DNA from: an uncultured Alphaproteobacteria bacterium
GTDB taxonomy: Bacteria > Pseudomonadota > Alphaproteobacteria > CAAHEQ01 > UBA3637
Assembly: GCA_937935995.1 (NCBI GenBank)
Contig: CALGXF010000011.1
Location: 246-64,245, forward strand
Direction of reading: 5' to 3'
DNA: 64,000 bases
Below the pieces are notes generated by a model that saw nothing but the letters and a program-made list of their open reading frames with translations, was not told the DNA's origin and ran no database searches. This document shows positions 42,607 to 46,073 of this stretch, one piece after another (the first letter of the stretch is position 1; the number at the start of each line of letters is the position of its first letter). Position numbers and translations under genes: made by a program.

Positions 42607-42740
42607 TTCAAGGACCTCGACTTTTTATCAAACCTATACTATATATATAAAAAAACAAGACTCGCGTCAATCATCTATTTTCAGAAATAAAAAAAAATCC
42701 GTATTTTAAAAAAAAGCTTTACAAAGCCCGAAAATAATAG

Positions 42741-42769
42741 TAGACAATAGTTAATTTTTTTAGTAAAAT
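42741..42769 (+). promoter_or_regulatory. Candidate sigma70 promoter for the virB2-like gene in the AT-rich divergent intergenic region
   Basis: TAGACA, a 17-nt spacer, then TAAAAT. The GAGGAGG RBS lies 5 nt before the ATG at 42808. The intergenic region 42607-42807 has multiple A8-A9 runs. Confidence 0.4.
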
Positions 42770-42807
42770 AAAAAAAGGGTATGGAAAATAATAATGAGGA
42801 GGTTCTT

Positions 42808-43161
42808 ATGAAAAAATTATCATCCGTCCTGACAGTTGCATTAACTTTTGCATTTGTCTTGCTGGCAACAAACGCAATGGCGAGCGGTATCGCTTCTTCC
42901 GATGCATTTGACATTGTGTTGGAAAAAGTAATTGATGCGTTCACTAACTCCAAACTGGTCATCTTCGTTATCGGTGGCTTTGGTTTGATTGCCGTTGCTT
43001 TCTTGGCCATTTTCGGTAAAGTTCACTGGAAATGGTTCGCCGGTTTGTTAATCGGATTGGCTGTTGTTGCTGGTGCCGGTATGGTTGTTGACTATGCGAC
43101 CGGTGACGGCGGAATGCAAACCAACTTAGAAGACTCTTTCGAAAATTCTATTGGTATGTAA
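42808..43161 (+). CDS. Conjugative T4SS pilin, VirB2/TrbC family
   Basis: 117 aa. Signal peptide MKKLSSVLTVALTFAFVLLATNAMA followed by two hydrophobic helices separated by a short loop, which is the VirB2 architecture. Confidence 0.65.
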   Translation: MKKLSSVLTVALTFAFVLLATNAMASGIASSDAFDIVLEKVIDAFTNSKLVIFVIGGFGLIAVAFLAIFGKVHWKWFAGLLIGLAVVAGAGMVVDYATGDGGMQTNLEDSFENSIGM

Positions 43162-43185
43162 CCTGTCAAGGCAAGAAACACGAAA

Positions 43186-43216
43186 GTCGCCGCAAATTCC
43201 TTGCGGCGGCTTTTTT
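43186..43216 (+). terminator. Rho-independent terminator/attenuator after the virB2-like pilin gene
   Basis: GTCGCCGCAA-attcc-TTGCGGCGGC followed by T6. Confidence 0.7.
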
Positions 43217-43248
43217 ATATCTTTTTTAACAACGGAACAGAAAAGAAC

Positions 43249-43277
43249 TTGTCACTCCTTTAAAAATTGTTTATCTT
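43249..43277 (+). promoter_or_regulatory. Candidate sigma70 promoter for virB3-virB4
   Basis: TTGTCA, a 17-nt spacer, then TATCTT, followed by RBS AAGAGGAG and the ATG at 43304. Confidence 0.4.
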
Positions 43278-43303
43278 ATATCAAAGAGAAAAGAGGAGCC
43301 GAA

Positions 43304-43597
43304 ATGAACGAACCCATTTTAAAAGCTGTTGCCATGCCGCCGCGTCTGTTTTGGGCGCCGTTAGCGCCGGCTATCTTGAATCTGGCCATTCAATTTGCCG
43401 CTATTTTCGTTTTATTGGCCGCTTACCAGCTGAACCCTTTGTGGATTGTCGGCATTTCGGTTTTACCGTCTCATTTAATTCTCGTTGCTTTGGGCGCAAA
43501 AGAGCCTCATTTGTCAAATATGATGAAATCACAAGGGCCTTTTATGAAAACTTACCACACAATTTACCCCCAACGGGGCAGAAAATTGGCACCATAA
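43304..43597 (+). CDS. T4SS VirB3/TrbD-like small membrane protein
   Basis: 97 aa with two hydrophobic segments. It sits directly between the VirB2-like and VirB4 genes. Confidence 0.55.
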   Translation: MNEPILKAVAMPPRLFWAPLAPAILNLAIQFAAIFVLLAAYQLNPLWIVGISVLPSHLILVALGAKEPHLSNMMKSQGPFMKTYHTIYPQRGRKLAP

Positions 43598-43607
43598 GGA
43601 TATCAAA

Positions 43608-46073
43608 ATGGATGAAACAAGCATTCTTTCCATGTTAGTGAATACAGCCGAATCAACCGGTACGCTGGTTGTGGTTATCGGCTTAATTGCGGCGGTTGCA
43701 TTTGCGGCATTGCTGGCAACCAAATTCGGTGAGTGGATTTTACCGCAGCCGCAAGAAACACGGGTCGCGGATTTCTTACCCTTTTCCAGACTGGGAGAGG
43801 ACGGCGCCACGATTTACTGCCGGAACGGATCCATTGCACGTGTTTTCGAAATCAAAGGGGCTGATACCGCTTTAATGATGCCCGAAGACAGAAATGCTCT
43901 GTTGGATATGCGCAAACGTTGGATTGATTCTATGGCCGAGCTTGAAATTACATCCAGAATCATTACAATTCGTGACAAGCTTCCGATTTCCGAGCAAAAA
44001 ACGCACAAAATCCCGATTTTACAAGAAGTATCATCGCAATGGATTAAAACGTTGGATCGGATTTTCCAGAATAAACACTACATTATTTTATCCGTAAATG
44101 ACCGAAAAAATGCTATTCGTGATTTAGATCAGGCAACACAGGCTCTTTTTGCTATTTTAGACTTGTATCAACCGGTTTTGATTTCGGAAAAAACACCTTT
44201 TAAGCATCAAGATAAAAGCCCGTTTTGGCTGTTTGCTCAACTGGCCAGTCCTTTGTCTAAACCGAAACCGATTATCGGTTCTCAACGCGGAGAAGAATTA
44301 AATACATTACTGACGTCCGATTACATTCATTTCACAAAAGACGAAGGAATTATTCGTTATTTTGCTGGAAACCGTGAAAAGCTCGGCATTGCCATCGGCA
44401 TTCGCAAACCCGGGGATTTCATGGATGAACAGATGATTTCTGACCTGATGGCTATCGATTATGAAGTTAACATTGTTCATAATATTCAGGCTATTTCGTA
44501 TGTTAAAGCCAACGCGTTGCTCATGCAACAGCAGCGCCAAGCTCTGTTAACCAGTCCGTCCGTCGGTGTTCATGCGCAATATGACGCCGCCATGCAAATG
44601 TTAGATACGTCCGATGCCAACGCCCAAACGTTAAACAGATATGCGATGACAATGTACCTGTTTGGCGATACAAAAGAAGAGTTGATGGCCGGGCAAGAAG
44701 AAATCGAACGGATTTGTCGGTTTTACAACGTCACGCCGGTTCGCGAGGGCTGGGCGGCACAAGCAGCCTTTTTCTCGCAATTCCCGACATACGATGTGTA
44801 TCCGAAAACGTTTATGTATTTATCTCGAGTTGTTGCTTGCGCTATCGGGCTTGATAAAACGGCTTCCGGTCTTCAAAAATCCGACTGGGGGAATGGGCCG
44901 ATTTCTTACTTTAAGACGATTAACGGAACAGCGTATGCATTCCAATTCCACGTTTCATCCGAACCGTATGCGGTTGCTCACACGGCTTTAATCGGGCCGA
45001 CGGGACAAGGGAAAACAACATTGTTCTCGTTTTTAGCCGGACAAGCTATGCGCTTCCCGGACTTAAACGTTTATTTCTTTGACCGCAATAATGGTGCCAA
45101 AGTCTTTGCTTTGGCGTTAGATGCGCCTTACATTCGCTTCGACGGCGGGGAAGGATCTACGACATTAAACCCGTTTGCTGTCGAAGACACGCCGGATAAC
45201 CGAGCCTTTTTAAGAAGCTGGCTGCGTGATATCACGGGCGGAACGGATGCTTTGTCCGAGCAAGAAATTGCGCGAGCCGTTACAACAGCTTTTGAATATC
45301 TGCGGCCGGAAGAACGATTGCTGAAAAATTTGTATAAAAGTTGTTTTTCACCACCGTCTCAAAGCGAACCGGGAGAAATTCGACCGGGTAAAATGCGTTC
45401 CGAACTCTTCCGATGGGTTAACAATGACCAATACGGACGAATTTTTAACTCTGTGGAAGACAATCTGGACATGACGGCTCACCAATACATGGCCTTTGAC
45501 TTCACAACCATTTTCCAAGATGCGACATTAGCGCCGGCTGTGATTAGTTATTTGATGCACCGTATTCACATGGTTGCCAGTGCCAAAGGAACGCCGTCCA
45601 TGATTATGATTGATGAAACGGCGCCGATGTTGGAACACCCGATGTTTAAAGACAGCTTTATTGTCGGTTTGCGAGAAGGTCGTAAAAAGCGTCAAGCGTT
45701 CTTATGTGCTTTCCAGCAACCGCGTTTCTTGGATGATCACGGGTTGGGAGATGTTATTCGCGGGCAGTGCCAAACCGTCATTTTCTTCAGAAACCCGCAG
45801 GCAAATGAAAGCGATTATGCCTCTTGGAAGTTAAGCCCGCGTGAAATGAACTTTATTTTAGGTAAAGAATTTGCAGATCGGAAATATGCTATTTTGGTCA
45901 GCCGTCCTGCCGTACACGAATCTGTTATTTTGGATGTGGATTTAGGCGGATTAGGCCCCTTGTTGAAGATTTATTCTTCCGGGAATAAACACGTGTTGTT
46001 GGCGGAACAACTGAAAGCTCAATTGGGGAATGATTCGGCTGCTTTCTTGAAAATGTATTTAGAAAACGCCTGA
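43608..46073 (+). CDS. T4SS ATPase VirB4/TrbE family
   Basis: 821 aa. N-terminal TM region. Walker A (LIGPTGQGKTTL) and Walker B (IMIDETAPML). The size and architecture match VirB4. Confidence 0.85.
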   Translation: MDETSILSMLVNTAESTGTLVVVIGLIAAVAFAALLATKFGEWILPQPQETRVADFLPFSRLGEDGATIYCRNGSIARVFEIKGADTALMMPEDRNALLDMRKRWIDSMAELEITSRIITIRDKLPISEQKTHKIPILQEVSSQWIKTLDRIFQNKHYIILSVNDRKNAIRDLDQATQALFAILDLYQPVLISEKTPFKHQDKSPFWLFAQLASPLSKPKPIIGSQRGEELNTLLTSDYIHFTKDEGIIRYFAGNREKLGIAIGIRKPGDFMDEQMISDLMAIDYEVNIVHNIQAISYVKANALLMQQQRQALLTSPSVGVHAQYDAAMQMLDTSDANAQTLNRYAMTMYLFGDTKEELMAGQEEIERICRFYNVTPVREGWAAQAAFFSQFPTYDVYPKTFMYLSRVVACAIGLDKTASGLQKSDWGNGPISYFKTINGTAYAFQFHVSSEPYAVAHTALIGPTGQGKTTLFSFLAGQAMRFPDLNVYFFDRNNGAKVFALALDAPYIRFDGGEGSTTLNPFAVEDTPDNRAFLRSWLRDITGGTDALSEQEIARAVTTAFEYLRPEERLLKNLYKSCFSPPSQSEPGEIRPGKMRSELFRWVNNDQYGRIFNSVEDNLDMTAHQYMAFDFTTIFQDATLAPAVISYLMHRIHMVASAKGTPSMIMIDETAPMLEHPMFKDSFIVGLREGRKKRQAFLCAFQQPRFLDDHGLGDVIRGQCQTVIFFRNPQANESDYASWKLSPREMNFILGKEFADRKYAILVSRPAVHESVILDVDLGGLGPLLKIYSSGNKHVLLAEQLKAQLGNDSAAFLKMYLENA

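What the first reader, a model, noticed from the sequence alone, without database searches (positions are those of the whole stretch)
42607..46073. Orphan conjugative-type VirB2-VirB3-VirB4 trio divergently paired with the type IVb pilus operon
Across a 200-bp AT-rich intergenic region with A8/A9 runs, and divergent from the pilus operon, lie a VirB2/TrbC-like pilin, a VirB3-like protein and a full VirB4 ATPase with Walker A and B motifs. The pilin has a signal peptide plus two TM helices and is followed by its own attenuator-type terminator. Nothing else follows. There is no VirB5-B11, VirD4, relaxase or oriT. The next genes are an unrelated lipoprotein and murA. VirB2/3/4 cannot build a channel alone. 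Either this is the decayed stump of an IncI-like conjugation module, where a T4b thin pilus and a T4SS are naturally neighbours, or the trio has been co-opted. A pilin, its polymerisation platform and an ATPase are the minimal pilus-biogenesis unit of a T4SS. It is speculative, but they could use the neighbouring secretin as an outer-membrane conduit. The intact reading frames and motifs argue against simple pseudogenisation.
Basis: partly seen in the sequence, partly recalled or inferred. Interest (0 to 1): 0.65.

Follow-up and report, generated by a model that had tools for sequence, protein, structure and literature searches.

The report
Conserved VirB2-VirB3-VirB4 beside type IVb pilus
Three type IV secretion genes (pilin VirB2, VirB3, ATPase VirB4) sit back-to-back with a type IVb pilus operon in the chromosome of an uncultured gut alphaproteobacterium; they are a conserved, selected, vertically inherited module rather than plasmid debris, but whether the rest of the secretion machine lies elsewhere in the genome could not be checked.

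Summary
virB2 (42808-43161), virB3 (43304-43597) and virB4 (43608-46073) are intact. They diverge from an R64-type type IVb pilus operon across a 201-bp, 75% AT spacer. The 64-kb window holds no other T4SS gene, relaxase or integrase.

The "decayed IncI stump" reading is rejected:
- virB3-virB4 occur at 62-99% identity in 33 species-level gut Alphaproteobacteria MAGs.
- dN/dS against the closest relative is 0.011 for virB4, 0.10 for virB3 and 0.25 for virB2.
- The nearest annotated relatives are VirB (P-type) conjugation systems on alphaproteobacterial plasmids, not IncI.

The pairing with the pilus operon is ancient. It recurs in all 8 sampled loci of a sister clade (VirB4 50-55% identical). 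There the operon is longer, with three VirB2 paralogues, VirB3, VirB4 and VirB5-like secreted proteins. In one lineage VirB2 stays beside the pilus operon with no virB3-virB4 following it.

Outgroup chromosomes carry scattered islands (B3-B4-B7-B8-B9; B3-B4 plus a lone B11).

Best reading (about 0.5): this is one island of a dispersed, domesticated chromosomal T4SS that partners with the type IVb pilus.

Live rival (about 0.2): a reduced pilus module that uses the pilus secretin.

Whole-genome scans could not be run.

The parts
31649..32080 (-). 143-aa secreted ORF, last gene of the pilus-operon strand; function unknown
   Evidence: ORF list; no Pfam hit
32031..33449 (-). 472-aa Cys-rich prepilin-like protein at the position held by the PilS/bundlin pilin in relatives
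   Evidence: N_methyl motif plus EGF-like hits. Relatives have a 180-185 aa PilS/bundlin pilin at this position
33548..34672 (-). PilR-like inner-membrane platform protein
   Evidence: Pfam T2SSF E 3e-25
34684..36408 (-). PilQ-like assembly ATPase of the type IVb pilus
   Evidence: Pfam T2SSE E 2e-67. 38.8% identical to the ATPase of the Bosea plasmid type IVb pilus cluster
36428..37330 (-). PilP-family protein
   Evidence: NCBIfam TIGR03021 pilP_fam, E 3e-15, 57 bits, above the 34.65 cut-off
37305..38738 (-). PilO (type IVb PilO2-like)
   Evidence: Pfam PAP_PilO E 9e-27; tblastn hits to annotated pilO2 genes
38755..40425 (-). PilN-like secretin
   Evidence: Pfam Secretin E 2e-9, above cut-off
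40409..41305 (-). TcpQ-domain protein
   Evidence: Pfam TcpQ E 4e-17
41407..42606 (-). 399-aa secreted protein, first gene of the pilus operon. It is conserved in every related locus and has a conserved C-terminal domain. No family could be assigned.
   Evidence: Alignment A3. No Pfam, NCBIfam or PDB match. The AlphaFold single-sequence model was unusable, pLDDT 46
42607..42807 (.). Shared divergent control region, 75% AT with A7-A9 runs. A virB2 promoter-like site, TAGACA-17-TAAAAT, lies at 42741-42769. On the other strand there is a conserved TTGACG...TATATA block for the pilus operon.
   Evidence: The blocks are conserved in L001-L004 and L013 although VirB2 there is only 41-47% identical. 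The minus-strand promoter was read by eye from the alignment.
42808..43161 (+). virB2 / trbC pilin, 117 aa
   Evidence: PF04956 above cut-off; 279 homologues; dN/dS 0.13-0.25
43182..43224 (+). Intrinsic terminator-like hairpin plus T run after virB2
   Evidence: 14-bp stem, z -4.7
43249..43277 (+). Promoter-like site for virB3-virB4 (TTGTCA-17-TATCTT)
   Evidence: consensus match only. It fits the finding that virB2 and virB3-virB4 separate as independent units in other genomes
43304..43597 (+). virB3, 97 aa
   Evidence: dN/dS 0.03-0.16
43608..46073 (+). virB4 ATPase, 821 aa, with an N-terminal membrane helix and intact Walker A and B motifs
   Evidence: dN/dS 0.011 against L001
46074..46493 (.). 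Variable non-coding spacer, 53% GC. It marks the downstream boundary of the module and is an insertion hotspot.
   Evidence: Not conserved in L001 or L002. L001 carries a 662-aa pilin-like gene here

Best explanation
The trio is a working, selectively maintained piece of a domesticated chromosomal P-type (VirB-like) type IV secretion system that has been inherited vertically in a large clade of uncultured gut Alphaproteobacteria.

Proposed mechanism:
- virB2 is transcribed from its own promoter in the shared AT-rich region. The strong hairpin after it lets the pilin be made in excess.
- virB3-virB4 form a second unit. They make the inner-membrane VirB3/VirB4 ATPase complex, which in known systems extracts VirB2 from the membrane and powers assembly.
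- The other channel parts (VirB6, B8, B9, B10 and perhaps B11/D4) are not in the window. They are most likely encoded in other small islands of the genome, as in Helicobacter comB2-4/comB6-10 and in the scattered islands seen in outgroup chromosomes.
- The back-to-back position with the R64-type type IVb pilus operon is the ancestral state of the gut clade. It most likely reflects co-regulation of two machines used in one process: a contact pilus plus a T4SS, as in IncI plasmids and PAPI-1.

Shown: gene identities, intactness, purifying selection, vertical inheritance, conserved pairing, and a P-type origin.

Inferred: the existence of the missing parts elsewhere, the co-regulation, and the division of labour.
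For: - Identity of the three genes.
- Conservation: virB3-virB4 were found in 33 species-level genomes at 62-99% identity. VirB4 is more conserved than housekeeping PepA (71% against 45% in L023).
- Selection: dN/dS is 0.011 for virB4, 0.03-0.16 for virB3 and 0.13-0.25 for virB2.
- Phylogeny: the VirB4 NJ tree gives one coherent lineage. The pil-linked arrangement is found in the sister clade and in the window's subclade, so linkage is ancestral and separation is derived.
- Pairing: all 8 sampled sister-clade contexts show the pilus operon divergent from a virB2-led cluster that runs through virB3 and virB4 to secreted ORFs; six have the plain order B2 x3, B3, B4 and two are interrupted or separated by inserted genes.
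- Scattered precedents in relatives: L053 has B3-B4-lipoprotein-B8-B9 among lon, hisS and prfA. L051 has B3-B4 alone with a VirB11-size ATPase 2.6 kb away. L037 has a weak TrbL/VirB6-like polytopic gene apart from the B2-B4 cluster.
- Origin: the nearest annotated relatives are full conjugative VirB operons with B2-B3-B4 as the first three genes.
- Independent units: the terminator and second promoter match the observed breakpoints. VirB2 stays with pil in L055, and virB3-virB4 travel alone in the isolated-pair loci of clade A.
Against: - No VirB6, B8, B9, B10, B11 or D4 homologue was seen in the 64-kb window or in about 0.86 Mb of related gut-clade loci. That sample is only +/-10 kb around virB4 or virB2 and is redundant.
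- In the sister clade the genes after virB4 are VirB5-like coiled-coil proteins, not B8-B10 as in the plasmid and L053 relatives.
- So the presence of a core complex in these genomes is an assumption.
Confidence: 0.5

Rival explanations
1. Hybrid or reduced machine. The lineage kept only the inner-membrane and pilus parts of a T4SS: VirB2, VirB3 and VirB4, plus VirB5-like and perhaps VirB6-like proteins in the sister clade. These parts work with the type IVb pilus apparatus, whose secretin complex replaces the VirB7/9/10 outer-membrane core.
For: - The divergent pairing is conserved over deep divergence (PilN about 36% identical, VirB4 50-55%) in all 8 sister-clade loci and in the window's subclade.
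- In L055, VirB2 alone stays on the pilus operon's divergent promoter.
- Every T4SS part recognised near these loci belongs to the pilus or inner-membrane set: B2, B3, B4, B5-like (PF07996, E 5.5e-5 and 6e-4) and B6-like (E 1.3e-3).
- No outer-membrane core gene was seen in any held locus.
Against: - No precedent is known (own knowledge; literature searches found nothing).
- In the large A2 subclade (L010-L033) virB3-virB4 sit alone among lgt, ppa, kdsB, ndk, gatCAB and xthA, with no pilus genes within 10 kb.
- Outgroups retain B8, B9 and B11.
- Only a small part of each genome was seen.
Confidence: 0.22
2. Redundant extra copy. A complete T4SS with its own B2-B4 exists elsewhere in the genome. 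This trio is a diverged duplicate, like RvhB4-II in Rickettsiales, with a regulatory or specialised role.
For: Duplication of VirB4, B8 and B9 is a hallmark of the alphaproteobacterial rvh system (PMC11077975). Multiple VirB2 paralogues occur in the sister clade.
Against: - Walker A and B are intact and dN/dS is 0.011.
- The VirB4 tree shows a single lineage with no sign of two paralogue groups among 45 loci.
- The pattern scan of one genome per species returned one locus per record. It used exact peptide patterns from this protein, so diverged paralogues would have been missed.
Confidence: 0.1
3. Decaying remnant of an integrated conjugative element or IncI-like plasmid.
For: No relaxase, coupling protein or core complex lies nearby. 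A type IVb pilus next to a T4SS recalls IncI plasmids.
Against: - The reading frames are intact and under strong purifying selection.
- The genes are present in at least 33 species in housekeeping contexts, with no integrase and no compositional break.
- VirB4 is VirB/P-type. Its closest relatives are on alphaproteobacterial VirB plasmids at 33-38% identity, not IncI.
Confidence: 0.03

Closest known systems
VirB-type conjugative T4SS of alphaproteobacterial plasmids (Microvirga sp. VF16 pMVF16-3; Erythrobacter aureus YH-07 plasmid)
   Same: These are the closest annotated relatives. VirB4 is 38% and 33% identical over 94-95% of its length. VirB2 and VirB3 are also recognisably homologous, and the order B2-B3-B4 opens the operon.
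   Different: Those operons continue with VirB5-like genes, B8, B9, B10, B11 and D4, and are preceded by a MobA/MobL relaxase. Here none of these is present, the locus is chromosomal and vertically inherited, and a type IVb pilus operon is the divergent neighbour.
Helicobacter pylori ComB DNA-uptake T4SS (comB2-comB3-comB4 operon plus a separate comB6-10 operon)
   Same: A VirB2-VirB3-VirB4 trio stands as a separate operon, away from the rest of a functional T4SS and without a relaxase (PMC2912397).
   Different: No second operon has been seen here. No specific sequence affinity to ComB4 was shown. ComB has no adjacent type IV pilus operon (own knowledge).
Rickettsiales vir homolog (rvh) T4SS
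   Same: It is an alphaproteobacterial, chromosomal, vertically inherited P-type T4SS split into islands among housekeeping genes. Ankyrin-repeat genes lie next to virB3 in L009 and L051.
   Different: The rvh hallmarks are duplicated B4/B8/B9, multicopy B6 and no VirB5 (PMC11077975). Here VirB5-like genes exist in the sister clade, no B6 array follows B4, and duplication could not be tested.
IncI1 R64 thin pilus and PAPI-1-type ICE pilus (type IVb pilus serving a T4SS)
   Same: The pilus operon has the R64 gene order: TcpQ-domain protein, secretin, PilO, PilP, ATPase, platform, pilin. A type IVb pilus encoded beside a T4SS, and used with it, is the known precedent for a functional partnership (own knowledge).
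   Different: Those are mobile elements with I-type or GI-type T4SS. Here the T4SS genes are VirB-type, the locus is chromosomal core, and only B2-B4 are adjacent.
Bartonella Trw T4SS (own knowledge)
   Same: It has amplified VirB2 and VirB5 paralogues and no coupling protein, and is used for adhesion rather than transfer. This resembles the sister-clade operon with three VirB2 and several VirB5-like genes.
   Different: Trw keeps the full B6-B11 channel. The window itself has a single VirB2 and no VirB5-like gene.

Membership tests
VirB4/TrbE/CagE T4SS ATPase | CagE_TrbE_VirB domain plus a C-terminal P-loop ATPase with Walker A and B | tested here: met
   PF03135 E 3e-11, above cut-off. TrwK (PDB 7o41) E 2e-41 over residues 169-819. 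GPTGQGKT at 463 and MIMIDE at 665.
VirB4/TrbE/CagE T4SS ATPase | Score above the curated NCBIfam TIGR00929 cut-off | tested here: not met
   347 bits against a cut-off of 643, E 3e-103. This is a divergent member. The first ~165 residues, including a membrane helix, lie outside the match.
TrbC/VirB2 pilin | PF04956 domain; signal peptide plus two hydrophobic helices | tested here: met
   44 bits against a cut-off of 27.9. Topology was read from the sequence.
VirB3 | PF05101 match; about 100-aa membrane protein encoded directly upstream of virB4 | tested here: inconclusive
   The window protein scores 16.7 bits, below the 23.9 cut-off. Ten of 15 orthologues hit PF05101, best E 4e-5. BLASTP E 9e-10 to the annotated Microvirga VirB3. 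Position and size fit. No PDB match.
Complete P-type (MPF-T) T4SS or conjugation system | VirB6, VirB8, VirB9 and VirB10 (plus VirB11, VirD4 and a relaxase for conjugation) in the same locus | tested here: not met
   None was found in the 64-kb window.
Complete P-type (MPF-T) T4SS or conjugation system | The same components anywhere in the genome | not testable with these tools
   Only the window and +/-10 kb loci are held.
IncI (MPF-I) conjugation module | I-type/Dot-Icm-like transfer genes; VirB4 homologue of the TraU type | tested here: not met
   The best family matches are VirB4_CagE and TrbE models. The closest plasmid relatives are VirB-type operons. No other transfer genes are present.
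R64/PilO2-type type IVb pilus | Secretin, TcpQ-domain protein, PilO, PilP, T2SSE ATPase, T2SSF platform and a prepilin, in that order | tested here: met
   The order matches the Bosea plasmid type IVb cluster.
R64/PilO2-type type IVb pilus | Prepilin peptidase and a small PilS-type major pilin in the operon | tested here: not met
   No peptidase A24 hit in the window. The pilin slot holds a 472-aa Cys-rich prepilin-like protein. A 133-aa N_methyl ORF lies 11 kb away at 20071-20472.
Rickettsiales rvh T4SS | Duplicated RvhB4/B8/B9, multicopy RvhB6, no VirB5 (PMC11077975) | tested here: inconclusive
   No B6 array follows B4. VirB5-like genes are present in the sister clade. Duplication cannot be tested without whole genomes.
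ComB-type DNA-uptake T4SS | A B2-B3-B4 operon plus a separate B6-B10 operon; no B11, D4 or relaxase | tested here: inconclusive
   The first feature is met by architecture. The second operon cannot be tested.

The most novel reading that the evidence does not exclude
A composite envelope machine. In this gut alphaproteobacterial clade the T4SS outer-membrane core (VirB7/9/10) would have been dispensed with. The VirB2 pilin, the VirB3/VirB4 ATPase complex, and in some lineages VirB5- and VirB6-like proteins, would operate with a type IVb pilus apparatus and exit through its secretin. That would be a T4SS / type IV filament chimera.
Probability: 0.2. Interest if true: 0.85.

Novelty: new variant of a known kind. 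Interest (0 to 1): 0.55.

Why it matters
T4SS and type IV pili are treated as separate machine families. They meet only on some mobile elements, where a thin pilus helps mating. Here the first genes of a VirB operon and an R64-type pilus operon have been kept back-to-back in the core chromosome across a deep, uncultured, gut-associated alphaproteobacterial clade. VirB4 there is more conserved than some housekeeping enzymes. At the least, this marks a domesticated and probably dispersed T4SS that is likely central to how these unstudied gut bacteria interact with other cells. At most, it is a new way of building a secretion or pilus machine from parts of two systems. A simple whole-genome profile scan of existing MAGs would decide between the two.

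Tried and rejected
- Homologues of the sister-clade genes that follow virB4 (families Y, Z, W, V) were sought in the window and clade-A loci with custom HMMs. 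None was found; the best E was above 0.1.
- VirB8, B9, B10, B11, D4 and relaxase sequences from the Microvirga and Erythrobacter plasmids and from L053/L051 were run with phmmer against six-frame ORFs of the window and all loci. Only the pilus ATPase matched VirB11. A first run with --max timed out.
- The third protein-database search, on the 1300-aa sister-clade protein V, returned one fragment because of low-complexity words.
- The single metagenome scan was lost to a tool error.
What follows V in the sister clade is therefore unknown.
- PDB profile searches found nothing meaningful for VirB3, the 399-aa first pilus gene or the VirB5-like family (coiled-coil noise only).
- NCBIfam gave nothing for the 399-aa family.
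- AlphaFold on the 399-aa protein, as a single sequence, gave pLDDT 46, so no fold search was made.
- An Rfam scan of 42000-47000 gave only sub-threshold chance hits.
- Literature searches for this combination, or for T4SS in RF32-type gut Alphaproteobacteria, found nothing relevant.
- The representative-library search showed a continuum of VirB4 relatives at 30-45% identity but carries no context.
- The lipoprotein ORF at 46494-46898 was considered as a VirB7 analogue and rejected. It has its own promoter-like site, is separated by a non-conserved spacer, and is conserved only in L001 and L002.

Full report
**What is there.** The window is chromosomal DNA of an uncultured gut alphaproteobacterium. 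The closest genome records are human and ruminant gut MAGs labelled Alphaproteobacteria bacterium.

- On the minus strand, 31649-42606 encodes an R64/PilO2-type type IVb pilus operon. In order it holds a conserved 399-aa secreted protein, a TcpQ-domain protein, a secretin, PilO, PilP, a T2SSE ATPase, a T2SSF platform, a 472-aa Cys-rich prepilin-like protein and a 143-aa ORF. The same order is seen in the type IVb cluster of a Bosea plasmid.
- A 201-bp spacer follows, 74.6% AT with A7-A9 runs.
- The plus strand then carries virB2 (42808-43161; PF04956 above cut-off).
- After virB2 comes a strong hairpin terminator at 43182-43214 (z -4.7) and a promoter-like site at 43249-43277.
- virB3 follows (43304-43597). 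Its Pfam VirB3 match is below cut-off, but 10 of 15 orthologues match, and BLASTP to an annotated VirB3 gives E 9e-10.
- virB4 is last (43608-46073). TIGR00929 gives E 3e-103 but below the curated cut-off; TrwK gives E 2e-41; Walker A and B are intact.
- After virB4 come a 420-bp non-conserved spacer, a lipoprotein ORF, murA, dtd and pepA.
- The rest of the window is housekeeping: the dcw cluster, ATP synthase, sua5, PBP1a, prfB, ffh and others. It has no other T4SS gene, relaxase or integrase, and no compositional break.

**Not a remnant.** A pattern scan of one genome per species found virB4 in 33 distinct loci at 62-99% identity, always preceded by virB3. VirB4 is better conserved than PepA (71% against 45% in L023). 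Against the closest relative, dN/dS is 0.011 for virB4, 0.10 for virB3 and 0.25 for virB2. Synonymous sites are saturated in more distant pairs. The flanks are ordinary chromosomal genes that differ between species: lgt, ppa, kdsB, ndk, gatCAB, xthA, uvrA, htpG and lpxC. This is vertical inheritance under strong constraint. The "decayed stump" reading is rejected.

**Origin.** The closest annotated relatives of VirB4 (33-38% identity over about 95% of its length) are on plasmids of Microvirga and Erythrobacter. There VirB2-VirB3-VirB4 open complete VirB operons. These continue with VirB5-like genes, B8, B9, B10, B11 and D4, and follow a MobA/MobL relaxase. The ancestry is thus P-type (VirB), not IncI.

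Nearer chromosomal outgroups show split systems:
- L053 (42% identity) has B3-B4-lipoprotein-B8-B9 between lon and aspartokinase.
- L051 (45% identity, 29% GC, with an ankyrin gene) has B3-B4 alone, plus a VirB11-size ATPase 2.6 kb away.

**The pairing with the pilus operon is old.** VirB2 has 279 detectable homologues. I looked at the context of eight more distant ones (nine counting L055, described below). In all eight sister-clade contexts (VirB4 50-55%, PilQ about 60%, PilN about 36% identical to the window's), the same pilus operon lies divergent from a longer virB operon. That operon holds VirB2, a second VirB2, a 335-1168-aa protein with an embedded VirB2 hairpin, VirB3, VirB4, and then several secreted coiled-coil proteins.

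Evidence on those extra genes:
- Two of the secreted proteins in L042 hit the VirB5/TrbJ Pfam family at E 5.5e-5 and 6e-4.
- A 713-aa polytopic protein in L037 hits TrbL/VirB6 weakly, at E 1.3e-3.
- The post-virB4 families evolve fast and have no homologue in the window.

An NJ tree of VirB4 gives one coherent lineage:
- a sister clade in which every locus is pil-linked;
- subclade A1 (the window, L001-L009, L013), mostly pil-linked;
- subclade A2 (L010-L033), where virB3-virB4 stand alone.

Linkage is therefore ancestral and separation derived. Breakpoints fall exactly between the transcription units:
- L005 and L008 have the pilus operon facing virB3-virB4 with no virB2.
- L055 (PilN 67% identical to the window's) has the pilus operon facing virB2 alone, followed by an ABC-F gene and grpE.

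The spacer keeps conserved promoter blocks even where VirB2 is only 41-47% identical.

**Interpretation.** These points are established:
- It is a functional module.
- It is vertically inherited.
- It has a P-type origin.
- It has an ancestral and repeatedly retained physical link to a type IVb pilus operon.

Whether these genomes also encode VirB6/8/9/10 is not established. I favour (about 0.5) a dispersed chromosomal T4SS whose other islands lie outside the window, working together with the type IVb pilus. Three things support this. The outgroups are dispersed. H. pylori shows that a B2-B3-B4 operon can be one half of a working system (PMC2912397). No system is known to work with B2-B4 alone.

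The alternative (about 0.2) is that the lineage kept only pilus and inner-membrane T4SS parts and uses the pilus secretin. It is consistent with the fact that every T4SS gene seen near these loci is B2, B3, B4, B5-like or B6-like, and that no core-complex gene appeared in about 0.86 Mb of held loci. That sample is small and redundant, however, and subclade A2 has uncoupled virB3-virB4 from the pilus genes. A paralogue explanation (about 0.1) cannot be excluded without whole genomes.

**Limits.**
- Genome-wide and metagenome scans were exhausted.
- What lies beyond the ~1300-aa gene in the sister clade is unknown.
- VirB3, VirB5-like and VirB6-like assignments rest on sub-threshold or borderline profile matches.
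- Promoters are consensus matches only.
- The tree is a distance tree without support values.
- Literature searches found no description of this arrangement, which is weak evidence of novelty.

**Verdict.** This is a new variant of a known kind: a domesticated, trimmed VirB module syntenic with a type IVb pilus operon across a gut alphaproteobacterial clade. It is of moderate interest now, and would be of high interest if the whole-genome scan shows that no core complex exists.

Noticed in passing
window 23607-25430 (-): The 607-aa ATP synthase alpha subunit carries an N-terminal OSCP/delta domain. This looks like a delta-alpha fusion.
   Followed up: no
window 3458-6313 (+): A 951-aa protein has two full sets of Mur-ligase domains, apparently a MurE-MurF fusion within the dcw cluster.
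   Followed up: no
window 32031-33449 (-), 59396-60799 (-), 28969-30681 (+), 20071-20472 (-); L001 12490-14478: There are several large Cys-rich proteins with prepilin-type N-termini (472, 467 and 570 aa), one with EGF-like hits, plus a 133-aa pilin-like ORF. In L001 (VirB4 99% identical) a 662-aa paralogue is inserted directly after virB4. Fragments of such genes also occur near virB3-virB4 in L014, L015, L020, L028 and L033. These genomes seem to hold an expanded, mobile family of giant pilin-like proteins.
   Followed up: partly
window 46074-46493: A 420-bp spacer after virB4 has 53% GC and no conservation in L001 or L002. It is a variable hotspot where L001 carries an inserted gene. There is no credible Rfam hit.
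   Followed up: partly
L009 247-1125; L051 296-1288: An ankyrin-repeat protein is encoded directly upstream of virB3 in L009, and another about 8.4 kb upstream of virB3 in outgroup L051. Such proteins are typical T4SS effectors in alphaproteobacterial symbionts.
   Followed up: no
L034 10779-12032; L037 11200-14706; L046 10819-11826: The sister-clade operons encode 335-1168-aa proteins in which a TrbC/VirB2 membrane hairpin is embedded in a long coiled-coil or low-complexity protein. This is an unusual pilin fusion.
   Followed up: partly
L044 12453-14896: VirB4 is called as two ORFs (490 + 329 aa) in this metagenome contig. This is either a frameshift pseudogene or an assembly error.
   Followed up: no
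window 18358-18876 (+): An IalB (invasion-associated locus B) family gene lies just downstream of the dcw/rsmB region.
   Followed up: no
window 41407-42606 (-) and orthologues (alignment A3): The first gene of the pilus operon is conserved in all related loci (393-606 aa). It has an invariant C-terminal domain (...LRW..FA...EIRID...REPNSFIIR...) and matches no Pfam, NCBIfam or PDB family.
   Followed up: partly
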